This document shows positions 1,184 through 10,504 of a DNA stretch of 10,504 nucleotides, one piece after another. The notes below the pieces were generated by a model, which saw nothing but the letters and a program-made list of their open reading frames with translations, did not search any database and had not been told where the DNA came from. How positions within the stretch are numbered: position 1 is the stretch's first letter; each line of letters opens with the position of its first letter. The DNA comes from a virus. Lineage: Duplodnaviria; Heunggongvirae; Uroviricota; Caudoviricetes. Made by a program: the position numbers and the translations under genes. Where the stretch lies: the IMG/VR virus record IMGVR_UViG_2541047882_000009, positions 1-10,504 of that record; one strand, given 5' to 3'.

Positions 1184-1768
1184 TCACTCACCTTTCTGTT
1201 GCCGTAATTTCTCCGGCACGTTTCCGGTTGTTTCCATCAGGTAGTCTTTCAGAATGCGGGGCAGGTTATCGGCAGTTTTAGCGCACGCATTACAGGCGCG
1301 TGCTGTTTCTTTCCTCAGGCCCTCGATCATTGCCGGAGTCATCGCGGGGAACTGCCTTTGCATTGTGAGCGGTAAACTATCCATGATCGAAGAAATCTGG
1401 CGCGCCAGACCACGAAGCGCATAGAGAACGAACTCAGTATCTGTAACTTCCCCCGCCTCTCTGGCGTTCTTCAGTTCCTGCCCGTCCGCCTGTGCTTTGG
1501 TGAGACGGTAGCGTTCGTACTCTGTTGTGCCTGGCTGTAAATCTGATTCACCAGCAGCACGTAAATCATCAAGCTCCCTGCGGAGTTTTTCGTTTTCGAT
1601 GTCCTTCTCCCTCTGTGCATACCATTCGATCACCTGTGCAGAGTCGAAAGTCACTTCCACACCTTTACCCCCACCAGATACATGGGGAAGCCCTTGCGTT
1701 TGCCATCGTTCAATCGTGCGCGGATCGACGCCAAAAATCTTCGCAAGATTATTTTTATTAACATTCAT
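1184..1768 (-). CDS. terS: Terminase small subunit, lambda Nu1 family, 194 aa
   Basis: Seen in sequence compared with recalled lambda Nu1: [103 protein letters not shown] aligns almost colinearly with [109 protein letters not shown] SD 10 nt upstream. The recognition-helix region differs from lambda. Confidence 0.9.
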   Translation of the reverse strand: [194 protein letters not shown]

Positions 1769-1985
1769 CTATCAATTCCTTATCAAAAACCAGTTCCGAC
1801 ATGAAACGCCAAAAAAACAGGATTTTTGGGCTTTATGATGTCGTATGTTTCTGGTGGTTGATTTTAATAAAAACAAACAGTTATGCGCGAGAAGTACCGA
1901 CATGCTTTTTCCTGAAAAATTTTCATAAACAGTTAAGAATTGCGCGTACACGTACCCCCCGTGTTTCAGATTCTGGAAAGGACCC
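1769..1985 (-). other. Lambda-type cos region (cosN-proximal segment plus cosB with R3-I1-R2-R1 layout) immediately upstream of terS
   Basis: Seen in sequence compared with the recalled lambda left end: the minus-strand reading contains CTGTTTATGAAAATTTTTCAGG (lambda CTATTTATGAAAATTTTCCGG), then CATAACTGTTTGTTTTTATTAAAATCAACC (lambda CATAACTTAATGTTTTTATTTAAAATACC, the IHF I1 region), flanked by three repeats: CATGTCGGTAC (about 1891-1905), inverted ATGTCGTATG (about 1836-1848) and CATGTCGGAAC (about 1790-1804). These occupy the positions of lambda R3, R2 (inverted) and R1, and the terS ATG follows as Nu1 does in lambda. The exact nick positions cannot be assigned. Confidence 0.6.
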
Positions 1986-2011
1986 GTGAAAATTGGGGTG
2001 ATCACCACCGT

Positions 2012-2042
2012 TCCGGACACAAAAAAATCGCGAGGCCTTGCC
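2012..2042 (-). terminator. Rho-independent terminator ending the head operon
   Basis: Seen in sequence: stem CGCGAGG / CCTCGCG (2020-2026 and 2036-2042) with a 9-nt loop; on the minus strand it is followed by a T run (complement of the A run at 2012-2018). It sits about 25 nt after the 141-aa gene stop. Confidence 0.55.
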
Positions 2043-2065
2043 AACCTCGCGAACGTTCATTTCAG

Positions 2066-2491
2066 TTACTTAACAGACAGCAACAGCTTTTCATCTTCGG
2101 TCAGTCCGGCGTTACCATCACCGGCTGCTGGCCCAACACATTTCGGGCTGTGCTTTTCCATGTACGCATCAAACAAAAAAGCCGTTTTCTTTTCCTGCAT
2201 CATTGCCTGGGCATCCACGGCAGCCAGTAACGTTTGTGCATAGGTTACTGTCATTACTTCAGAACCACACTCAATCAGCTTACTGGTGAATTCAGGGTAT
2301 TTTGATGCCAGCGGTAACGCCTTGATACCCTCTATGCGCTGTTTATCACTCTCAGCCTTTGCAGTAAGTACCGTTCGGGCTTCTGTCAGTGATGCGCCAT
2401 TATTTGCGAGATTTTCCGCAAGCGTCGGGTATTTCTGCGCCTCAGGCAGTGCCATGATCAATGCTCTGGTTGAATTTGCTTTCTCAGTCAT
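2066..2491 (-). CDS. Hypothetical protein, 141 aa, with an internal duplicated motif; last gene of the head operon
   Basis: Seen in sequence: GGTGA SD 4 nt upstream and a 14-nt gap after the gpD-like stop. An internal repeat is present: ALPEAQKYPTLAENL and ALPLASKYPEFTSKL. No family recognised; no convincing similarity to lambda FI, FII or W. Confidence 0.55.
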   Translation of the reverse strand: MTEKANSTRALIMALPEAQKYPTLAENLANNGASLTEARTVLTAKAESDKQRIEGIKALPLASKYPEFTSKLIECGSEVMTVTYAQTLLAAVDAQAMMQEKKTAFLFDAYMEKHSPKCVGPAAGDGNAGLTEDEKLLLSVK

Positions 2492-2505
2492 AAATCACCA
2501 CAAAA

Positions 2506-2835
2506 TTATTGCCCTAAAGGCTGCACGGAAATACCGGAACCAACAAAAGCCGACACTTTTTTCTCGAACGTGTCCGCTGTATCAGGCCAGTTAATTTCAT
2601 CGATATTAAAAACCCCGCACTTATAAACCTGTGCGCGGTTTTTTGTGGCCGTGTTAATGTCCGATATGGTCAGATACACCGCCTTACCGGGTGTACCGTC
2701 CCACTCAACCATCAGGCCCGCGCCGTTCTGCATCAGCGGAGTTCTCGCTTTAATTTCTCCGGCACTGGCAAAACAGGCCAGCGTGCTGACCAGTTCCTGC
2801 GTGCCGGAAAGGAATTGCGTGTAAGGTGTTGGCAT
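2506..2835 (-). CDS. Head decoration protein, lambda gpD family, 109 aa
   Basis: Seen in sequence compared with the recalled lambda gpD sequence: TPLM, WDGT, YKCGVF (lambda YKSGTF), WPD/WPE and AFVGSGISV (AFAGTAISIV), at the same length (109 versus 110 aa). It lies immediately downstream of the capsid gene with a good SD. Confidence 0.8.
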   Translation of the reverse strand: MPTPYTQFLSGTQELVSTLACFASAGEIKARTPLMQNGAGLMVEWDGTPGKAVYLTISDINTATKNRAQVYKCGVFNIDEINWPDTADTFEKKVSAFVGSGISVQPLGQ

Positions 2836-2845
2836 ACGATCCCCT

Positions 2846-3901
2846 TTATTTCACTTCGACGGTAACAAAGCGACCAATATCCACGGGTACTGGCTGCGGG
2901 GCGCTGTGCGTCTGCACGTATTCAATCGCCGGATCGCCAGGTACGATATAATTTTTCGGGTAGTACATCCCCTCAGAAAACCCCTCGCGTGCCGCGTCCT
3001 GATCCATGATGGCACCATAAGCAACAAGGCCTTTATTTTCGGTATTGCCGAAAACCATCATGTTTTGTTTCAGGAAATATTGCTGCTGCCCGCATTCGTC
3101 GTCATAACGACCGGAATAAACCACGAGCGCCACATCACCGAGATACCCCTTGAAGCTGACAACGCCGCCCAAATCTTTTAGCGCAAGTTCAAGTGACGAG
3201 TTTGAACCGCGACGCGTGTCCAGGAGTTCGCGGAATCGACGGAACGAGCGCAAAATACGCCAGGCTTCGCCACCCATGACGATAATATTTACCGTACCTT
3301 TGGAAAAATCAGCGTAAGCCTCAATGTCGCTTATCGGATCAAACGTCTCGGCATCCTGTTTTGACCATTCTTTCCCGCCAGCCTGTGTAATGTGATTGGT
3401 TGCGGGTAATCCCCAGTCAATTTCATAACGCTCAATGCCTTCGCCTTCGATAACGTTACGGCCTGTTGTGATGGCATTGACCGCCAGCCATTCAACACGC
3501 GCTTTGATGGCAGCAAGCTGTTTTTTCTGGCTGTCGTGAACCATTTTTACGCGGCGTAGTGCCGGGGAAGACTGACCATTGCCGATCTGTTCTCCAGCCA
3601 TGCGCATGATTGTTTTAGTGGGATCAATAACGTGTTTGGGCTTCATATAACCCGGCGTGAAAGTGTTCGTTGTAAAACCTTTGTCACGCATAACCTGACT
3701 GCCTGACATTGGTGAACAAAACGGACTCATGACCACGTTTTCAATATCCAGCGTATCAAGCGCAATATCTCGCGTACTGAACGTGGCGATATTCGGAAAA
3801 AACAGCGTCGTAAAGAGCGGATTAAATTTAAATTCCGGCACATCTTCTCGCCCGATATTTTTCAGTAGCGTTGGTGTGCTTACCAGTTGTGGCGCTGTCA
3901 T
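2846..3901 (-). CDS. Major capsid protein, lambda gpE family, 351 aa
   Basis: Seen in sequence compared with the recalled lambda gpE sequence: shared blocks FKFNPLF, FTPGYMKPKH (lambda FTPGYVKPKH), ITQAGGKEWSK (ITQSGGTEWSK), DPISDIEAYA (DPTDDIEAYA), VNIIV, DTRRGSNSSLE (DTRRGSNSELE), KGYLGDVALVVYSGRY (KGMYGDVAIVVYSGQY), YPKN, GDPA and SAP, at near-identical length (351 versus 341 aa). Confidence 0.9.
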   Translation of the reverse strand: MTAPQLVSTPTLLKNIGREDVPEFKFNPLFTTLFFPNIATFSTRDIALDTLDIENVVMSPFCSPMSGSQVMRDKGFTTNTFTPGYMKPKHVIDPTKTIMRMAGEQIGNGQSSPALRRVKMVHDSQKKQLAAIKARVEWLAVNAITTGRNVIEGEGIERYEIDWGLPATNHITQAGGKEWSKQDAETFDPISDIEAYADFSKGTVNIIVMGGEAWRILRSFRRFRELLDTRRGSNSSLELALKDLGGVVSFKGYLGDVALVVYSGRYDDECGQQQYFLKQNMMVFGNTENKGLVAYGAIMDQDAAREGFSEGMYYPKNYIVPGDPAIEYVQTHSAPQPVPVDIGRFVTVEVK

Positions 3902-4107
3902 TACTCACCCCCATGAGGCTGATTCATACCAAGCGCAGCGCGTAAATGGCTGCGTACCATCCAGCCGACTGACGGCTTCACCAGGCACAACGGATCAAGG
4001 CCGATTTTTTTTCCTGCCTCTGCGTTCTCCTCAAAGCGCGCATTAAGTGCGGCGATAATATCGGGGCTGATGTACACGGATACACCGCCCGGCTTCTGTG
4101 TTCCCAT
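3901..4107 (-). CDS. Hypothetical small protein, 68 aa, first gene of the head operon
   Basis: Seen in sequence: strong SD (AAGAGGAA) 9 nt upstream; the stop overlaps the capsid gene start (TAATG). No family recognised. Confidence 0.55.
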   Translation of the reverse strand: MGTQKPGGVSVYISPDIIAALNARFEENAEAGKKIGLDPLCLVKPSVGWMVRSHLRAALGMNQPHGGE

Positions 4108-4157
4108 AAATGAGATTCCTCTTTGACTAAAAAAATAAACATAACGAAAAGTCAGTC

Positions 4158-4223
4158 ATGATTTTAATCATCATTGCATTTTTTGCAATGCGATTGACTG
4201 TTGTTGCAAATCATGAAATGATT
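4158..4223 (-). promoter_or_regulatory. Candidate head-operon promoter overlapped by palindromic operator-like sites
   Basis: Seen in sequence: minus-strand sigma70-like promoter with -35 TTGCAA (4183-4188), 16-bp spacer and -10 TAAAAT (complement of 4161-4166). The palindrome ATGATT-TT-AATCAT (4158-4171) covers the -10 and CATTGCA-TTTTT-TGCAATG (4172-4190) covers the -35. A third palindrome AATCAT-GAA-ATGATT (4209-4223) shares the ATGATT half-site. Confidence 0.4.
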
Positions 4224-4284
4224 ATGCCGTGGTTTTAATCCTTGTACCACAGAGTCATTCAGCATTAATCACGTTAGCGGCGTG

Positions 4285-4320
4285 AAATCCCCCGGAACCT
4301 CATCCCGGGGGATTTTTTTT
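4285..4320 (+). terminator. Rho-independent terminator, plus-strand orientation, with no annotated plus-strand gene upstream
   Basis: Seen in sequence: perfect 11-bp stem AAATCCCCCGG / CCGGGGGATTT (4285-4295 and 4305-4315) with a 9-nt loop, followed by a T run to 4320. Confidence 0.55.
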
Positions 4321-4326
4321 ACGCAC

Positions 4327-4352
4327 AAAAAAGCCGGGAAAAATCCCGGCTT
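4327..4352 (-). terminator. Rho-independent terminator ending the replication/ssb operon
   Basis: Seen in sequence: stem AAGCCGGGA / TCCCGGCTT (about 4331-4339 and 4344-4352) with an AAAA loop; on the minus strand it is followed by a T run (complement of the A run at 4325-4332). It sits 15 nt after the ssb stop. Confidence 0.6.
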
Positions 4353-4366
4353 CTGTCACTCGTTGC

Positions 4367-4789
4367 TTAAAACGGTATGTTATCCCCGTACGGATCATCA
4401 TTTCCCGCCTGTTGTTTTGCCCTGTTCAGTGCGTCAGTAGCCTGGCCCTGCTGGCCTTTTTTGCCGCCCGGTCGCGCCGTCCGCGCACTGATTACGCTGT
4501 CTGCGATAACCTGCCAGCCCTGCCGCGTTTCGCCGTTCTGGCCTGTCCACTGGCTTACCTGCATGTTACCCGCCACGCTCACCAGTTCGCCTTTGTGGTG
4601 CTTTGCCAGTGCGTCGGCCTGTCTGCCAAACGCCATGACGGATAACCACATCGTCGCCGTTCCGTCATCTGCCTGGCTGCACGGCAGGGGAACCGCCATA
4701 CTCGCCATCGCCATTTGTGTCCCCTTGCTGGTGGTCTTTAACTGCGGGTCAGCCACCAGCCGCCCGTAAGCCGCTATCTGTGCTGTCAT
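4367..4789 (-). CDS. ssb: Single-stranded DNA-binding protein (short SSB), 140 aa
   Basis: Seen in sequence: OB-fold-like N-terminus (IAAYGRLVADPQLKTTSKG..., WLSVMAFGRQADALAKHHKGELVSVAGNMQVSQWTGQNGETRQ), a Gly/Gln-rich linker and an acidic tail ending DDPYGDNIPF. Established knowledge: this parallels E. coli SSB, including the C-terminal D-D-D-I-P-F protein-interaction tail. Confidence 0.85.
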   Translation of the reverse strand: MTAQIAAYGRLVADPQLKTTSKGTQMAMASMAVPLPCSQADDGTATMWLSVMAFGRQADALAKHHKGELVSVAGNMQVSQWTGQNGETRQGWQVIADSVISARTARPGGKKGQQGQATDALNRAKQQAGNDDPYGDNIPF

Positions 4790-5040: not shown

Positions 5041-5249
5041 CCCACCTGTGCCCACTTTTTCTACCCACTTTTCATGGTTTCCCACTTCGTCCCACCTGGG
5101 ATTTTGTGGTTTTATATCGTACTGTTTCATAAGAGTTTTTTTAGTGCCCACTTTTTGGGATGTATACACGTGGGAAAGTGGGCGATTTTGTTAAATTCCA
5201 GTTAAATTACCCACTATTCCCACTTTTAACGCCCACTTTTTACAGTGGG
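5041..5249. repeat. Iteron array, about 9 direct and 3 inverted copies of CCCACTTTT-like motif; candidate replication origin
   Basis: Seen in sequence: CCCAC(C/T)T copies starting at about 5041, 5051, 5064, 5081, 5091, 5147, 5210, 5219 and 5232, and inverted GTGGG copies at about 5170, 5178 and 5245. Inference: placement directly downstream of the rep gene stop matches the usual ori position in PICI/SaPI-type elements. Confidence 0.6.
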
Positions 5250-6646
5250 TGAACATCATCCCCATCGACGCAAATCACGCCGTCTTTTTCCAGTTTGGCT
5301 AACCATCGTTTAAGGTGTTTTGTGTCATATCCCAGCTTTTTCATGTCATCACGTAGCAGCGGGATCGTACATTTATCACCATGCTGTATACGCGACCGGA
5401 TACAACCCCATAAAGCCGTGTGATTTTCCGTCTTGTTCCCGGCCTCCTCTATGCGCTCCAGTTCAGCAGGGGCGCGGGGAACGTCAATCACCACCATGGA
5501 CACAATCTCTTCGCCATCTGTATCGGTGAACACCTCCACGCTTTTAAGATCGTATGCACTCTCTTTTGGCTCCTCTGCGTCCTTCATCTTCGTACACGCC
5601 GCCACCAGTGCTGTAACCTCTGAATTTTCCCGGCTGATTCGGTACTCTGCATCAAGCGCGGCACGGAATGCGCTGGAACCGCGCGCCCCCTTTGTTTCAT
5701 CCTTGCCGGAATGGTGAACCACCAGCACCGTGGCCCCTGTGGCCTGCTTTATCGCGTCACACCCCTGGATAAATGCGCCCATATCGCGGGAATCATTTTC
5801 ATCATTCCCACCAAAGCAACGGGCCAGCGTGTCGATCACAATCAGCCGCACATTTTCGCCCGTTCTGCTCTTAACAAGTCCGGCAGTCCTGATAACCTGC
5901 TCCACATAGTCAGGCGATGCGGGGAAGACAGGCGCGTTAACGATGCACAAATCTGTAACCACCTTGTCATGGGTTATCTCCCACGCCTTAACGCGGCGTT
6001 TTACGCCCATACTGCCTTCGCCAGCGATATAGATAACAGCGCCCTTACTTACCCTGCGGCCTCCCCATGCCATACCTGTGGCAACATGGCACGACCAGGA
6101 AATAGCCAGGAACGATTTATAAGAACCGCTGGCCCCGTAGGTGCTGCATAATGACTCAGCCGGAATAAGCCCCTTAATTACGTAGCTTTGCTGCGCGTCG
6201 AATCCCTCAGAACCCCATGAGATGGGAAGTGTGATTTTTCGCTTTCCACCATTCATGACCAGACTTTCCCCGCGTTCCCAGGTTTCTTTAAGCCGCGGTA
6301 GTTGCTCGCTCCAGTCCTCCAGCAGTTCGAAATTCTCTGAAAGTAACCGTGCTTCCTGGACACCTGCGATCGCCAGTTTGGTGGCAATGGTCAGCATCTG
6401 CATATCGTCCAGGTTTCCGGCGCGTATGACCTTTGCTCTGTATCGTCCTTCATCAACAATCTGTAAATTGTCCAGTTCGCTTAACTGATAACGGCCCAGG
6501 TAAACCGGAGGGATGGGATCGCCTGCTTTTTTGGCCTGTGCAATCATGTAATGTTCTGCAAAGGAGTGAGCATTATCACCCGCAAAAATAACCGCCTCAG
6601 TGTGTTTATCTTTCGGTAACAGTTTTACGTTCGGTGCCAGTTTCAT
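5240..6646 (-). CDS. Replication initiator/helicase-type ATPase, RepA-like (AAA_25 RecA-fold core), 468 aa, with a C-terminal winged-helix-like tail
   Basis: Seen in sequence: Walker A-like GASGSYKS, Walker B-like RLIVIDTL followed by VLVVHHSGKDETKG, in the arrangement LIPAESLCSTYGASGSYKSFLAISW...AVIYIAGEGS typical of AAA_25/RepA-like proteins. Established knowledge: such proteins act as replication initiators or helicases in PICIs, plasmids and integrative elements. The N-terminal 150 aa is unassigned and has no obvious primase motifs. An iteron array lies immediately 3-prime. Confidence 0.8.
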   Translation of the reverse strand: MKLAPNVKLLPKDKHTEAVIFAGDNAHSFAEHYMIAQAKKAGDPIPPVYLGRYQLSELDNLQIVDEGRYRAKVIRAGNLDDMQMLTIATKLAIAGVQEARLLSENFELLEDWSEQLPRLKETWERGESLVMNGGKRKITLPISWGSEGFDAQQSYVIKGLIPAESLCSTYGASGSYKSFLAISWSCHVATGMAWGGRRVSKGAVIYIAGEGSMGVKRRVKAWEITHDKVVTDLCIVNAPVFPASPDYVEQVIRTAGLVKSRTGENVRLIVIDTLARCFGGNDENDSRDMGAFIQGCDAIKQATGATVLVVHHSGKDETKGARGSSAFRAALDAEYRISRENSEVTALVAACTKMKDAEEPKESAYDLKSVEVFTDTDGEEIVSMVVIDVPRAPAELERIEEAGNKTENHTALWGCIRSRIQHGDKCTIPLLRDDMKKLGYDTKHLKRWLAKLEKDGVICVDGDDVHPL

Positions 6647-6942
6647 TTTTTACCTCTGGATGCGCTGAGCATGCTTTTTATTTTCTTAATATTTTCCCGT
6701 GCTTTTTCCCTGCTGGTGGGCTTACCGCGTGTTACGTTCTGTACCAGAGAAAAATCACGCCGGAACTGATAAACAGGCATCACGCAGTCATAGCCGTACC
6801 CATCACGGCGGTAAGTAACACACCGTCCCGCCACGCTTTTAATCGTTACAGTGCCGCCGTATTTATCTTTGAAAATATCGCCGGGGCGGATTTCAGGCCG
6901 AGCGGGGCCGCTGGCAGTAAAGCCAGAAATTTTCTGTTTCAT
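6643..6942 (-). CDS. Hypothetical basic protein, 99 aa (possibly DUF4222-like)
   Basis: Seen in sequence: ORF whose stop overlaps the rep start (ATGA). The motif GDIFKDKYGGTVTIKSVAGRCVTYRRDGYGYDCVMPVYQFRRDF is reminiscent of small prophage proteins found upstream of primase/rep genes; this is a recollection with low certainty. Confidence 0.5.
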   Translation of the reverse strand: MKQKISGFTASGPARPEIRPGDIFKDKYGGTVTIKSVAGRCVTYRRDGYGYDCVMPVYQFRRDFSLVQNVTRGKPTSREKARENIKKIKSMLSASRGKK

Positions 6943-8732: not shown

Positions 8733-8936
8733 TTAGTGAACTGCCTCGCGGCTGTCCTTCCATGCCAGAACTTCGGATAAAGACCAGCCAACGGAACGAC
8801 CGCCGAGTTTACGCCGTGATGGGAATTGTCCGGTTTTTTCCAGGCGGTACCGACATGAGCGGCTCAGGCCTGTAAGTTGCTGACATTCTTTTTCACGTAT
8901 AAAGCGATCAGTGCTTAACACTATTGCCTCCGTCAT
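8733..8936 (-). CDS. alpA: AlpA-family (excisionase-like, MerR-type HTH) DNA-binding regulator, 67 aa
   Basis: Seen in sequence: 67-aa ORF downstream of int on the same strand. Established knowledge: the size and the motif ...QQLTGLSRSCRYRLEKTGQFPSRRKLGGRSVGWSLSEVLAWK... are typical of AlpA/Vis-like regulators of P4-like prophages and Gram-negative PICIs. An int then alpA order is the canonical layout. Confidence 0.8.
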   Translation of the reverse strand: MTEAIVLSTDRFIREKECQQLTGLSRSCRYRLEKTGQFPSRRKLGGRSVGWSLSEVLAWKDSREAVH

Positions 8937-9189
8937 TTCTCAAAGAGTCATTTGGTGTCTTATTGTGTCGTATTGTTCCCGCTGGAGTGATGAATGGCAA
9001 ATATTGGTGACGGCCATTTTACAGAAATGGGGTAATTAGAATAAAAATACTTTTAAATCATTGTGATAAAGTAGCGTAAAATTCTGTTTTTACGTCTTTT
9101 TTACATGTTTTTAAGAGTGATTCGCCAGTGTATAAAAAAACAGTATGCATATAAAAATCAAATGTTTATGGCGCTGTTTGATTTTTAAT

Positions 9190-9257
9190 CCGTTTGTTCC
9201 AGATTGTTCGCCGTTGTTCGTCGTGGTGTCTCGTTGTTTCACGTTGTGTCCGTTCTG
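9190..9257. repeat. Six to seven tandem 10-bp direct repeats (nCGTTGTKTC) downstream of int and upstream of the alpA promoter
   Basis: Seen in sequence: ccgtttgttc, cagattgttcg, ccgttgttcg, tcgtggtgtc, tcgttgtttc, acgttgtgtc at 10-bp phasing. A related trio (TTGGTGTC, TTGTGTCG, TTGTTCC) at 10-bp phasing lies at about 8944-8973, directly upstream of the alpA start. Confidence 0.65.
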
Positions 9258-9274: not shown

Positions 9275-10504
9275 TTATATTTCTCTGGCTATTGGCAGTG
9301 TGGTTACGTTTTCGTGAGCACCTGCCAGTATCTCTAATCGCTCTGTCCACATATCCAGCGCGTTACGTTTCGCATCAATATAGCGGGAGTGGTTATAGAC
9401 TCGTTGCATCCCTGGCATCTGGTGGGCGGTAAGTTGCTCGACAATATGCGGATCCACGCCTAAATCGTTCAGCATCGTGGTAAACGTGCGCCGTATATCG
9501 TGCAGGGACCAGTGAGGATGGTTTAATTTTTTGTGCGTAAATCTGCCGTATTGTGACACGCTGGCTTCCTGTTTCAGTTCTCCGAGTAATAACCCTGTGT
9601 GCCTGTTCTGCTCCACCAGCTGCGTGACGAACGGCAAAATGCTTTCCGGTATTGGCCTGAATATGGCGACCTTCGTTTTGCTGTGTTCTTTCGGTACCGT
9701 CCAGAGCATTTCCTTAAAATCCCACTCCCTGATCTCCGACAGCCTCAGTTCTCCGGTCCGGCAGCCGAACACAATCAGGAGGCGGATTAGTGCGCTGTAG
9801 TAGGGCGGGAATATTTTTTTATCCAGCGCCTGTAATAATTCGCCCAGTTCTTTGTTACTAAGCACGCGTTCGCTTATGCCCGGCTTTTTGCCAACGTCCA
9901 GCACGTTGAGATCATCCAGAACGTTACTGACTGCGTAGCGACGTTTACGGCAGAACTTAAGCGCCTGTTTGCACGCCTGCATCATGTGGCCAGATGTTAC
10001 GGGTGATTTTTTGCGTATCCGGTCAAAACAGGCCAGCCAGTGACGCAACTCGCATTTATCCAGCGGCATATTGCCAATATGCTGTATGACGTGATTATTC
10101 AGGCGGCTTTTCAGGGAGACGTAATCGACACGGTTTTCCTTTACGTGCATTTCCAGCCAGTAGCTGATCGCATCGCCTACCGTTACCGGCTTTAGTGCTT
10201 CCTGTATGGAGTAATTAAGCTCATGGCGTGGATTTTTTCCCTCTGCCAGCCATGCGCGACACTGTGCTGCTTTTTCCCTGGCTGCTTTCAGGCTCAGATC
10301 CGGATAATTTCCCAGCTTCAGGCGTTCCGGTGATACCTGGCGTCCTGTTCCTGCCCTGTAGGTGAAATACCAGGTTAACAGACCGCTGGTGGAGTGTCTG
10401 ATACTCAGATTTCCACCGTCATTAAGAAAGGTGGTTTTTTGGGCTGGTGTGCCGTTGATTTTTCTTAGCTGCGTGTCGCTCAGTTTGTTAAGTGCCCTGC
10501 TCAT
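9275..10504 (-). CDS. int: Tyrosine site-specific integrase, P4-type, 409 aa
   Basis: Seen in sequence: 409-aa ORF whose ATG is the last three bases of the window. Established knowledge: the N-terminal arm-binding-like segment (LSDTQLRK...FLNDGGNLSIR...WYFTYR...LKLGNYPDLSLKAAREKA) and the C-terminal catalytic region with HxxR and a terminal Tyr context (HDIRRTF...HQMPGMQRVYNHSRY) match the P4 integrase family layout. The promoter and any att site or tRNA would lie beyond the window. Confidence 0.9.
   Translation of the reverse strand: MSRALNKLSDTQLRKINGTPAQKTTFLNDGGNLSIRHSTSGLLTWYFTYRAGTGRQVSPERLKLGNYPDLSLKAAREKAAQCRAWLAEGKNPRHELNYSIQEALKPVTVGDAISYWLEMHVKENRVDYVSLKSRLNNHVIQHIGNMPLDKCELRHWLACFDRIRKKSPVTSGHMMQACKQALKFCRKRRYAVSNVLDDLNVLDVGKKPGISERVLSNKELGELLQALDKKIFPPYYSALIRLLIVFGCRTGELRLSEIREWDFKEMLWTVPKEHSKTKVAIFRPIPESILPFVTQLVEQNRHTGLLLGELKQEASVSQYGRFTHKKLNHPHWSLHDIRRTFTTMLNDLGVDPHIVEQLTAHQMPGMQRVYNHSRYIDAKRNALDMWTERLEILAGAHENVTTLPIAREI

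What the first reader, a model, noticed from the sequence alone, without database searches (positions are those of the whole stretch)
4158..4223. Head-operon promoter embedded in three palindromes sharing an ATGATT half-site
A near-consensus sigma70 promoter for the head operon has its -10 and -35 elements each covered by a perfect palindrome, with a third palindrome of the same half-site 40 bp upstream. This looks like tight repressor control of capsid expression, possibly relieved by a helper-encoded or induction-specific factor. I found no LexA-box-like CTGT-N8-ACAG here, so the controlling protein is not obviously LexA.
Basis: seen in the sequence. Interest (0 to 1): 0.55.

Follow-up and report, generated by a model that had tools for sequence, protein, structure and literature searches.

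The report
Satellite capsid-operon promoter, LexA box lost
The three palindromes are real and sit on the conserved promoter of the capsid/packaging genes of an E. coli phage satellite (an EcCICFT073-type PICI), but only two are conserved family features, and what stands out is that this lineage has lost the LexA (SOS) operator that most relatives carry just downstream.

Summary
There are perfect palindromes at 4158-4171 (P1), 4172-4190 (P2) and 4209-4223 (P3). P1 covers the -10 (TAAAAT) and P2 the -35 (TTGCAA) of a minus-strand sigma70-type promoter. That promoter lies 47 nt upstream of the first gene of the capsid/packaging operon of a PICI satellite.

Across 76 unique related promoters, including EcCICFT073 and O157:H7 islands, the P1 and P2 cores are almost invariant. 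These cores are TGATTAnAATCA and TTGC-N7-GCAA. The 67-nt core is 84-85% identical where third codon positions of the next gene are 45-60% identical. Some protein probably reads them; I could not identify it.

P3's perfect symmetry is private to this window. Even a relative identical in the flanks breaks it. P3 also has the opposite half-site polarity to P1. The conserved letters under P3 fit the TG-extended -10 of a back-to-back plus-strand promoter for a roughly 90-nt RNA.

In 61 of 76 variants a LexA-type box (CTGGAT-N4-ATCCAG, as at ruvA) follows the -10. The 15 variants lacking it, this window included, are exactly those with the weaker TAAAAT -10. This is an ordinary regulated promoter in an interesting local variant, and the three-operator, one-repressor reading is not supported.

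The parts
4158..4171 (.). P1: perfect palindrome ATGATT-TT-AATCAT, enclosing the -10 hexamer
   Evidence: The core TGATTAnAATCA is nearly invariant in 75 variants. The outer pair is A-T in 40, C-G in 12, U-G in 1 and unpaired in 22.
4161..4166 (-). -10 hexamer TAAAAT of the head-operon promoter
   Evidence: It is TATAAT in 61 of 76 unique variants and TAAAAT in 15.
4172..4190 (.). P2: perfect palindrome CATTGCA-N5-TGCAATG, spanning the -35 and the upstream half of the spacer
   Evidence: The core TTGC-N7-GCAA is conserved in all 12 most divergent sequences. The outermost C-G pair is present in only 12 of 75 variants.
4183..4188 (-). -35 hexamer TTGCAA, with a 16-nt spacer to the -10
   Evidence: TTGC is invariant in the family.
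4209..4223 (.). P3: perfect palindrome AATCAT-GAA-ATGATT, centred near -62 of the head promoter and overlapping the -10 of the candidate + strand promoter
   Evidence: The perfect symmetry is seen only in this window among unique variants. The family norm is AATCATTTCATAATT.
4153..4156 (-). Inferred transcription start of the head operon, 5-8 nt after the -10
   Evidence: Inferred from hexamer positions. Not mapped experimentally.
4138..4157 (-). Position homologous to the relatives' LexA-type box; degenerate here (GACTGACTTTTCGTTATGTT)
   Evidence: It scores -5.3 bits, against 17-23 bits for relatives. The leader RNA is unstructured here, whereas CFT073 forms a 14-bp hairpin followed by a U run.
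4116..4124 (-). Ribosome-binding site AAAGAGGAA of the first gene
   Evidence: Read from the sequence. Conserved in the alignment.
3901..4107 (-). First gene of the operon: 68-aa orphan protein, homologue of the gene preceding the capsid gene in EcCICFT073
   Evidence: It matches phrog_3255 of unknown function. Only 13 relatives were found among 1.84 billion representatives.
2846..3901 (-). Lambda gpE-like major capsid protein gene
   Evidence: Pfam Phage_cap_E, E = 2e-46.
1184..2835 (-). Rest of the operon: gpD-like decoration protein (2506-2835), Nu3/scaffold-like 141 aa (2066-2491), 90-aa ORF (1772-2044), Nu1-like small terminase (1184-1768)
4194..4222 (+). Candidate back-to-back promoter: -35 TTGACT (4194-4199), 17-nt spacer, TG (4214-4215), -10 AATGAT (4217-4222)
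   Evidence: In 75 variants TG is invariant and positions A2 and T6 of this -10 are at least 90% conserved. The variable column is hexamer position 4, which is the column that breaks P3.
4229..4320 (+). Candidate ~90-nt RNA ending in a + strand terminator (stem 4285-4315, T run 4313-4320)
   Evidence: Fold -30.8 kcal/mol, z = -4.15. A terminator at a similar distance occurs in CFT073-type and L008-type relatives although the body differs. No Rfam family matches. Not shown to be transcribed.
4326..4350 (-). Terminator of the upstream alpA-to-ssb operon: GCCGGG-ATTTTT-CCCGGC followed by TTTTTTG
   Evidence: Read from the sequence and found as a palindrome. ssb ends at 4367.

Best explanation
The interval is the core of the sigma70-type promoter of the capsid/packaging operon of an EcCICFT073-type phage-inducible chromosomal island (PICI), read on the - strand. 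Its elements are -35 TTGCAA, a 16-nt spacer, -10 TAAAAT, a start near 4153-4156, and a roughly 47-nt leader before the 68-aa ORF and the gpE-like capsid gene.

P1 and P2 are this lineage's versions of two blocks conserved through the whole family. One is TGATTAnAATCA around the -10. The other is TTGC-N7-GCAA, joining the -35 to a conserved AATGCAA in the spacer. They are kept far more strictly than neighbouring DNA or synonymous sites, so I infer that a protein reads them. The most likely role is a repressor or modulator acting directly on RNA polymerase binding. Its identity is unknown.

P3 is not a third copy of the same operator. Its perfect symmetry is private to this window. The conserved letters beneath it are best explained as the TG-extended -10 of a back-to-back + strand promoter, which would make a short RNA ending at the + strand terminator 4285-4320.

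The family's recognisable repressor site is a LexA-type box immediately after the -10, which would give SOS control like SaPI operon I. The window's clade has lost that box and at the same time has a weaker -10 (TATAAT to TAAAAT). I therefore predict that in this element the head operon is not LexA-controlled and is driven by a weaker promoter. Any remaining control would act through P1/P2.

Shown: the sequence features, their conservation, and the co-variation of box loss with the -10 change. Inferred: promoter activity, the start site, LexA binding in relatives, protein binding at P1/P2, and the + strand RNA.
For: Element identity:
- The window carries int, alpA, a DUF4222 protein, an AAA_25 replication protein and ssb, then the 68-aa ORF, gpE-like, gpD-like, Nu3-like and Nu1-like genes, all on the - strand.
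- CFT073 and O157:H7 islands have the same order.

Promoter:
- Hexamers were found.
- A terminator of the upstream operon lies at 4326-4350.
- TTGC and TA(T/A)AAT are invariant across 75-76 unique variants drawn from 132 loci.

Selection on the core:
- The 67-nt core is 84-85% identical to CFT073/O157-type relatives. Third codon positions of the adjacent gene are 45-60% identical, and the next 100 nt upstream are about 61% identical.
- AA-TGCAA in the spacer and TTA-AATCA at the -10 are invariant in the 12 most divergent sequences.

P3:
- The C-G pair is present in 2 of 70 variants and mismatched in 64.
- L001 is identical in the flanks but carries 2 substitutions in P3.
- TG, A2 and T6 of the + strand -10 are conserved, and the + strand promoter was called.

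LexA box:
- CTGGAT-N4-ATCCAG (or CTGTAT..ATTCAG) occurs in 61 of 76 variants.
- These score 17-23 bits on a matrix of E. coli LexA boxes, whose own scores range from 13 to 27 bits.
- The ruvA and cho boxes with the same CTGGAT..CCAG arms are listed in PMC3009722, Table 4.
- The 15 variants without the box are exactly the 15 with TAAAAT.
Against: - There are no transcript or binding data. Promoter activity and the start site are predictions from consensus and conservation.
- P1 and P2 cores hardly vary, so pair counts cannot distinguish a dyad-reading protein from plain sequence conservation. The outer pairs are often uncompensated: 22 of 75 for P1 and 58 of 75 for P2.
- No candidate regulator emerged. 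The alpA upstream region shares no motif with the promoter. No second P2-like site exists in the window. The 68-aa protein gave no fold or family match.
- The + strand terminator could simply be part of a bidirectional terminator for the upstream operon, as it is in L008-type loci.
- My LexA matrix was built from boxes recalled from memory, and only 18 of them were checked against a paper.
Confidence: 0.6

Rival explanations
1. First reader's model. P1, P2 and P3 are three operators for one dedicated repressor with an ATGATT half-site. It shuts the head operon tightly and is displaced by a helper-phage or induction-specific factor.
For: - The three perfect palindromes are denser than chance, at 1.2% of shuffles.
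- P1 and P3 centres are about 51.5 bp apart, roughly five helical turns.
- P1 and P2 cores are conserved.
Against: - P2 has a different half-site.
- P1 and P3 have opposite polarity and different spacing.
- P3's symmetry is not conserved, even in a near-identical relative.
- No such motif occurs in lambda and no similar promoter occurs in 50,697 phage records.
- No repressor-like gene is linked to the module.
Confidence: 0.1
2. No dedicated regulator. The palindromes are by-products of two overlapping back-to-back sigma70 promoters in AT-rich DNA. Conservation reflects promoter strength and geometry only, and expression in this clade is constitutive.
For: - Both strands carry promoter-like hexamers.
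- TTATAA inside a TATAAT -10 is itself palindromic.
- A 22-nt inverted repeat (4167-4188 with 4204-4225, 82% complementary) matches two promoter cores facing away from each other.
- The outer palindrome pairs are often uncompensated.
Against: Sigma70 does not need a fixed spacer sequence. Yet AATGCAA in the head-promoter spacer and TTGCAAAT in the + strand spacer are at least 90% conserved, in lineages whose adjacent gene is only 65-75% identical.
Confidence: 0.2
3. The 68-aa product of the first gene autoregulates the operon by binding P1/P2, in the manner of a ribbon-helix-helix protein.
For: - The gene is always linked to this promoter.
- The sequence and model show an extended N-terminal segment followed by two helices.
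Against: - There is no Pfam hit even at E = 10.
- Profile searches find only 13 relatives, none informative.
- The 12-residue loop between the helices is atypical for ribbon-helix-helix proteins.
- In EcCICFT073, c1498-c1501 can be replaced without loss of transfer (PMC10460865).
Confidence: 0.06
4. P1 (and weakly P3) are Fur boxes, so the host iron regulator represses the operon.
For: - The Fur 19-mer consensus matches 13 of 19 positions at P1 in the window and 14 of 19 in most relatives. Only 0.9% of shuffles reach 14.
- The site reads as three NATNAT hexamers.
Against: - This was one of 12 consensus sequences tried, so it is not significant after correction.
- The symmetry centre differs from a Fur box.
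- The match is largely driven by TATAAT itself.
- There is no biological rationale.
Confidence: 0.04
5. The promoter is a loading site for a Q-like antiterminator, as at lambda pR' or at P. aeruginosa AlpA target promoters. The conserved spacer element would be the binding element, and the hairpin plus U run seen in relatives would be the terminator to be overridden.
For: - The binding elements of lambda Q and P. aeruginosa AlpA lie between -35 and -10, with a terminator just downstream (PMC7969949, PMC9371919).
- Relatives have a 14-bp hairpin plus U run right after the -10, with compensatory flank changes.
Against: - The hairpin's 5' arm starts inside the -10, so most of it is not transcribed from this promoter.
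- The -10-like pause element is not conserved (TATGAT becomes TGTGAT).
- The window has no hairpin at all.
- The island's 67-aa AlpA found no P. aeruginosa AlpA chain in a PDB search that returned a single AlpA-family hit. The P. aeruginosa protein is much longer, with DNA-contact residues up to 142, and has a 21Q-like fold.
- There is no similarity to lambda pR'.
Confidence: 0.04

Closest known systems
EcCICFT073 and the O157:H7 island (E. coli PICIs): the region upstream of the small ORF preceding capsid gene c1499
   Same: It is a homologous promoter. The 67-nt core is 84-85% identical, with the same -35, spacer block, -10 context and RBS. The downstream genes are the same: 68-aa ORF, gpE-like, gpD-like.
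   Different: Those islands have TATAAT, a LexA-type box with a long hairpin right after it, and usually a perC-family gene just upstream. The window has TAAAAT, no box, no hairpin and no perC. I found no published description of this promoter.
SaPI operon I promoter of S. aureus, LexA-controlled (Ubeda et al. 2007; seen here only as an entry in reference lists, whose title states LexA control)
   Same: It is a separate promoter in front of the packaging/capsid module of a phage satellite, downstream of the replication module. The window's relatives carry a LexA-type box there.
   Different: There is no sequence relationship. In the window the box is absent, so the defining LexA control is not met here.
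E. coli SOS boxes of ruvA and cho (PMC3009722, Table 4)
   Same: Relatives carry CTGGAT-N4-ATCCAG, identical arms to ruvA's GCTGGATATCTATCCAGC, and score within the range of known boxes.
   Different: The window's homologous 20-mer keeps only the left CTG (GACTGACTTTTCGTTATGTT) and scores -5.3 bits.
Lambda pR'/Q-binding element and the P. aeruginosa AlpA-binding element
   Same: A conserved, non-sigma element sits between -35 and -10 of a late-type promoter.
   Different: There is no conserved pause element, no usable terminator in the window, no Q-like protein in the island, and no sequence similarity.
P4 late promoters (Psid, PLL) activated by P2 Ogr / P4 Delta (from my own knowledge)
   Same: These are satellite late-gene promoters that depend on dyad-symmetric sites for a helper- or satellite-encoded factor.
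   Different: Those sites are TGT-N12-ACA centred near -55 on promoters with poor -35 elements. Here the promoter has good hexamers, the dyads overlap them, and the upstream palindrome is not conserved.

Membership tests
Sigma70-type promoter | -35 and -10 hexamers with 16-18 nt spacing, placed upstream of a gene with an RBS | tested here: met
   TTGCAA-16-TAAAAT matches 9 of 12 positions. It lies 47 nt upstream of AAAGAGGAA-N-ATG. The hexamers are invariant or nearly so in 75-76 variants.
Sigma70-type promoter | Transcription demonstrably starts there | not testable with these tools
   No transcript data were available. 5'RACE or dRNA-seq is needed.
LexA (SOS) operator | A 20-bp box with CTG-N10-CAG that scores like known E. 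coli boxes | tested here: not met
   The window's homologous site scores -5.3 bits and there is no hit of 8 bits or more in 4100-4400. Relatives score 17-23 bits and known boxes 13-27 bits. Reference boxes were checked in PMC3009722.
SaPI-operon-I-like LexA-controlled satellite packaging promoter | A separate promoter in front of the satellite's packaging/capsid module | tested here: met
   A terminator of the upstream operon lies at 4326-4350.
SaPI-operon-I-like LexA-controlled satellite packaging promoter | A LexA box overlapping the promoter or start site | tested here: not met
   It is absent in the window and in 14 other unique variants, and present in 61 of 76.
   P2 has a different half-site. 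P1 and P3 have opposite polarity and N2 versus N3 spacing. The P3 pair 25-33 is mismatched in 64 of 70 variants.
Q-type / P. aeruginosa AlpA-type antitermination promoter | A binding element between -35 and -10 | tested here: inconclusive
   A conserved AATGCAA block is present in the spacer, but nothing links it to an antiterminator.
Q-type / P. aeruginosa AlpA-type antitermination promoter | A -10-like pause element in the initial transcribed region, an intrinsic terminator downstream, and a cognate Q-like protein | tested here: not met
   TATGAT is not conserved. There is no hairpin in the window's leader. The window's 67-aa AlpA hits only an AlpA-family (PF05930-type) chain and not P. aeruginosa AlpA.
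Fur box | A match to GATAATGATAATCATTATC at the level of real sites and above chance | tested here: inconclusive
   The match is 13 of 19 in the window (6% of shuffles reach this) and 14 of 19 in relatives (0.9%). Twelve consensus sequences were tried.
Ribbon-helix-helix autorepressor (68-aa first gene) | A strand-helix-helix fold with detectable similarity to RHH proteins | tested here: not met
Gram-negative PICI (EcCICFT073 type), for the whole window | int, alpA, a primase/helicase replication module, and a small size with phage-like capsid/packaging genes but no tail or lysis genes | tested here: met
   The layout is the same as the CFT073 and O157 islands. A 99.7% identical copy lies between clpS and cspD in an E. 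coli chromosome.

The most novel reading that the evidence does not exclude
P1/P2, together with the conserved TGCAA block that sits 7 nt upstream of the -10 in both back-to-back promoters, form the operator of a bidirectional switch. The switch would lie between the capsid operon and a divergent ~90-nt RNA, and would be read by a still unidentified PICI-, helper- or host-encoded protein. In the window's clade this control would have replaced the ancestral LexA/SOS control.
Probability: 0.15. Interest if true: 0.55.

Novelty: new member of a known kind. Interest (0 to 1): 0.3.

Why it matters
How Gram-negative PICIs time their capsid and packaging genes has not been described in the papers I could search. 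Only AlpA autoactivation is documented. The comparison made here gives two testable statements. First, the EcCICFT073-type capsid operon has its own conserved promoter carrying a ruvA-like LexA box, which parallels SaPI operon I. Second, one natural lineage, this window's, has lost that box together with a -10 down-change. That provides a ready-made pair of alleles for asking whether SOS control of satellite capsid genes matters. The palindromes themselves are an ordinary feature of a regulated promoter.

Tried and rejected
- Rfam: no family matched in the window region or in the CFT073/O157 loci.
- Similarity to phage DNA: none for the 153-bp region. Lambda has no ATGATT-N2/3-AATCAT site and one chance-level TTGC-N7-GCAA. 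Lambda pR' is not similar.
- Consensus matching from memory for Fur, FNR, CRP, IHF, LexA, the CytR octamer, ArgR, Fis, ArcA, lambda CII, NsrR and PurR. Only Fur at P1 (13-14 of 19), lambda CII (7 of 8; 4.6% of shuffles) and the CytR octamer (7 of 8 at ATTGCATT) came near. None is significant after 12 trials.
- AlpA as regulator: the alpA upstream region shares no motif with the promoter. P. aeruginosa 'AlpA' (a Q-like antiterminator) is a different and much larger protein.
- The 68-aa protein as a ribbon-helix-helix repressor: no support.
- PerC as the necessary regulator: the gene is absent from the window, L006, L007, L008 and L013, yet the conserved blocks persist.
- Two genome-contig scans found nothing. 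The family is absent from species-representative genomes.
- Target search for the candidate RNA: only chance-level 9-10-mers.
- Literature string searches for the motifs: nothing relevant. No paper was found for PDB entry 8c3t.
- Sigma54, MerR-type (19-bp spacer) and alternative hexamer readings were considered by eye and rejected on spacing.

Full report
**What the window is.** All large ORFs lie on the - strand. By Pfam and PHROG matches they encode, in order:
- a tyrosine integrase (9275-10504);
- AlpA (8733-8936);
- a DUF4222 protein (6643-6942);
- an AAA_25 replication protein (5240-6646);
- SSB (4367-4789).

After a 259-bp gap come the remaining genes:
- a 68-aa orphan ORF (3901-4107);
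- a lambda gpE-like major capsid protein (2846-3901);
- a gpD-like decoration protein (2506-2835);
- a 141-aa protein resembling the scaffold end of the head protease (2066-2491);
- a 90-aa ORF (1772-2044);
- a Nu1-like small terminase (1184-1768).

A 99.7% identical copy sits between clpS and cspD in an E. coli chromosome. The islands of CFT073 (EcCICFT073) and O157:H7 have the same module order. The window is therefore a Gram-negative PICI of the EcCICFT073 type, and the finding lies in the gap between its replication module and its capsid/packaging module.

**The observation.** Three perfect palindromes are present:
- P1 at 4158-4171, ATGATT-TT-AATCAT;
- P2 at 4172-4190, CATTGCA-TTTTT-TGCAATG;
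- P3 at 4209-4223, AATCAT-GAA-ATGATT.

On the - strand the consensus scan finds TTGCAA (4188-4183), 16 nt, then TAAAAT (4166-4161). The -35 therefore lies in P2 and the -10 in P1. The inferred start is near 4153-4156, 47 nt upstream of the ATG at 4107, with AAAGAGGAA as the RBS. A terminator for the upstream operon (GCCGGG-ATTTTT-CCCGGC-TTTTTTG, 4350-4326) precedes it.

Three or more such palindromes arise in 1.2% of dinucleotide-preserving shuffles of the local 100 bp. Four of the window's 12 ATGATT/AATCAT hexamers and both of its TTGCAA hexamers lie here.

P2 has its own half-site. P1 and P3 have opposite polarity and different spacing, so they cannot be equivalent sites for one symmetric dimer.

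**Relatives.**
- Distant BLAST finds the region in 615 of 5426 complete E. coli genomes.
- The 68-aa protein family is tiny. There are 19 clusters at 90% identity, from E. coli and Salmonella, and 13 hits among 1.84 billion representatives.
- Using it as an unbiased handle, I collected 132 loci from genomes, metagenomes and IMG/VR. These gave 76 unique promoter variants.

**What is conserved.**
- TTGC of the -35 is invariant. The -10 is TATAAT in 61 variants and TAAAAT in 15.
- Beyond the hexamers, AATGCAA in the spacer and the TGAT/ATCA flanks of the -10 are invariant or at least 90% conserved. This holds even in the 12 most divergent sequences.
- Against CFT073/O157-type relatives the 67-nt core is 84-85% identical. 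Third codon positions of the adjacent gene are 45-60% identical, and the next 100 nt upstream are about 61% identical.

The P1 and P2 cores (TGATTAnAATCA and TTGC-N7-GCAA) are therefore under selection that sigma70 alone does not explain. Because they barely vary, pair counting cannot prove that the dyad as such is read. The outer pairs show some compensated changes (C-G in 12 variants for P1) but more uncompensated ones.

**P3.**
- The family norm is AATCATTTCATAATT. The window's C-G pair occurs in 2 of 70 variants and is mismatched in 64.
- L001 is 100% identical to the window in the flanking 100 nt and in the gene, yet has two substitutions, both in P3's left arm. P3's perfect symmetry is thus not a selected feature.
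- The letters that are conserved there fit another reading. On the + strand the scan calls TTGACT (4194-4199), 17 nt, then TG-n-AATGAT (4214-4222).
- Across the family TG is invariant, and positions 2 and 6 of that hexamer are at least 90% conserved. The variable column is hexamer position 4, which is the one that breaks P3.
- Such a promoter would start near 4229. It would run into a terminator that works only on the + strand (stem 4285-4315, T run to 4320). The predicted ~90-nt RNA folds at -30.8 kcal/mol, z = -4.15.
- CFT073-type and L008-type loci have the same layout with a different RNA body.
- No Rfam family matches, and I found no convincing target.

This part is a hypothesis, not a result. 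In some relatives the terminator is simply bidirectional and also ends the upstream operon.

**The LexA box.**
- Immediately after the -10, 61 of 76 variants carry CTGGAT-N4-ATCCAG, or CTGTAT-N4-ATTCAG in L008/L009.
- On a matrix built from E. coli LexA boxes these score 17-23 bits, against 13-27 bits for the known boxes. The window's homologous 20-mer scores -5.3 bits.
- The boxes of ruvA (GCTGGATATCTATCCAGC) and cho have the same arms (PMC3009722, Table 4).
- In relatives the box sits inside a longer palindrome, TCATAACTGGATG-AA-CATCCAGTTATGA, followed by TTTTTT. As RNA this folds at -18.7 kcal/mol, z = -4.0. Its flanks show compensated changes: CACAA/TTGTG, TATAA/TTATA, CAGGA/TCCTG. That suggests a hairpin constraint in addition to LexA.
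- Most of the 5' arm lies upstream of the predicted start. It would therefore act on read-through from the upstream operon rather than on transcripts from this promoter.
- The window's leader is unstructured.
- The 15 variants without the box are exactly the 15 with TAAAAT. They comprise the window's clade plus L115. Five rows were mis-anchored and were corrected from the alignment.
- Divergent outgroups (Salmonella L004, L006, L007, and L008/L009) have the box. Loss in the window's clade is therefore the parsimonious reading.

**Who reads P1/P2?** I could not tell.
- The alpA upstream region has GAACAAC-type repeats and a LexA-like 20-mer, but nothing resembling P1/P2.
- The window holds no second P2-like site.
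- A perC-family gene lies directly upstream of the promoter in many relatives. It is absent from the window and several others that keep the blocks.
- The Q/AlpA-type antitermination architecture (PMC7969949, PMC9371919) resembles the layout in relatives. It fails on the pause element, on the position of the hairpin relative to the start, and on the absence of a Q-like protein. The island's 67-aa AlpA is a PF05930-type protein.
- Of 12 remembered host-factor consensus sequences, Fur comes closest at P1: 13 of 19 here and 14 of 19 in relatives, with 0.9% of shuffles reaching 14. This is not significant after multiple trials.
- Lambda carries no related motif or promoter.

**Literature.** The papers on EcCICFT073, EcCIMP1, helper-embedded PICIs and PICI engineering that I could read describe AlpA autoactivation, Rpp and the capsid homologues. 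They do not describe this promoter or a LexA box. Motif strings are not found in the library. In EcCICFT073, c1498-c1501 can be replaced without loss of transfer, so the operon's first genes are accessory for mobilisation.

**Verdict.** P1 and P2 are conserved promoter-embedded dyads of unknown reader. P3 as a third operator is not supported. The most informative result is comparative: the family promoter carries a ruvA-like LexA box, and this window's lineage has lost it together with a -10 down-change. This is a new, undescribed member of a familiar kind, namely a separately regulated packaging-operon promoter of a phage satellite. Interest is modest.

Noticed in passing
window 4194-4320 (+ strand): Candidate divergent transcription unit. 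It has -35 TTGACT, a TG-extended -10 AATGAT and a ~90-nt RNA ending in a + strand-only terminator. The layout is conserved in distant relatives although the RNA body differs. There is no Rfam match and no clear target.
   Followed up: partly
L002 6157-6215 (- strand) and most related loci; homologous to window 4138-4166: Relatives carry a LexA-type box (CTGGAT-N4-ATCCAG) inside a 13-14-bp-arm palindrome followed by a T run. The flanks show compensatory changes, so the element is hairpin- or terminator-like as well as operator-like. It is missing in the window's clade.
   Followed up: yes
window 9126-9145 (- strand TACTGTTTTTTTATACACTG), between int and alpA: A LexA-box-like 20-mer scoring 16.5 bits on my matrix, but with CAC instead of CAG in the right arm. 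Published work reports that alpA induction is SOS-independent.
   Followed up: no
window 9190-9250 (- strand): A run of GAACAAC / ACAACG-type short repeats just downstream of the int stop codon. They could be recombinase or AlpA (directionality-factor) binding sites.
   Followed up: no
window 4088-4099 and 4345-4356: An exact 12-nt direct repeat, CCCGGCTTCTGT, brackets the whole intergenic region. One copy lies in codons 3-6 of the 68-aa gene and the other in the ssb terminator stem. It could be chance or a recombination scar.
   Followed up: no
L002 6411-6659, L003 6652-6924, L004 2482-2760; absent from window 4108-4366: A perC-family regulator gene lies between ssb and the head promoter in many relatives. 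This is the position Q occupies before pR' in lambda. It is absent from the window's clade.
   Followed up: partly
window 2066-2491 (- strand): The 141-aa ORF matches only the C-terminal (Nu3/scaffold-like) part of head maturation protease phrog_53. The island therefore seems to carry capsid, decoration and scaffold homologues but no portal or protease.
   Followed up: no
window 4150-4157 with 4192-4199: A further inverted repeat, AGTCAGTC / GATTGACT, brackets P1 and P2. It is specific to the window's clade and is seen in the DNA fold.
   Followed up: no
window 4209-4214 and the same columns in L001, L010, L011, L014-L019, L054-L058: P3's left arm is the most variable stretch of the promoter core among near-identical elements: ATAATC, ATGATA, ATGATG, ATGATC, ATCATG. 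In L001 it holds the only two differences from the window between the ~100 nt further upstream and the first 180 nt of the gene compared here.
   Followed up: partly
L134 (phage lambda) 44712-44722: The 11-mer AAAATGCAATC of the relatives' promoter spacer also occurs inside lambda's 6S RNA leader, downstream of pR'. This is probably chance.
   Followed up: no
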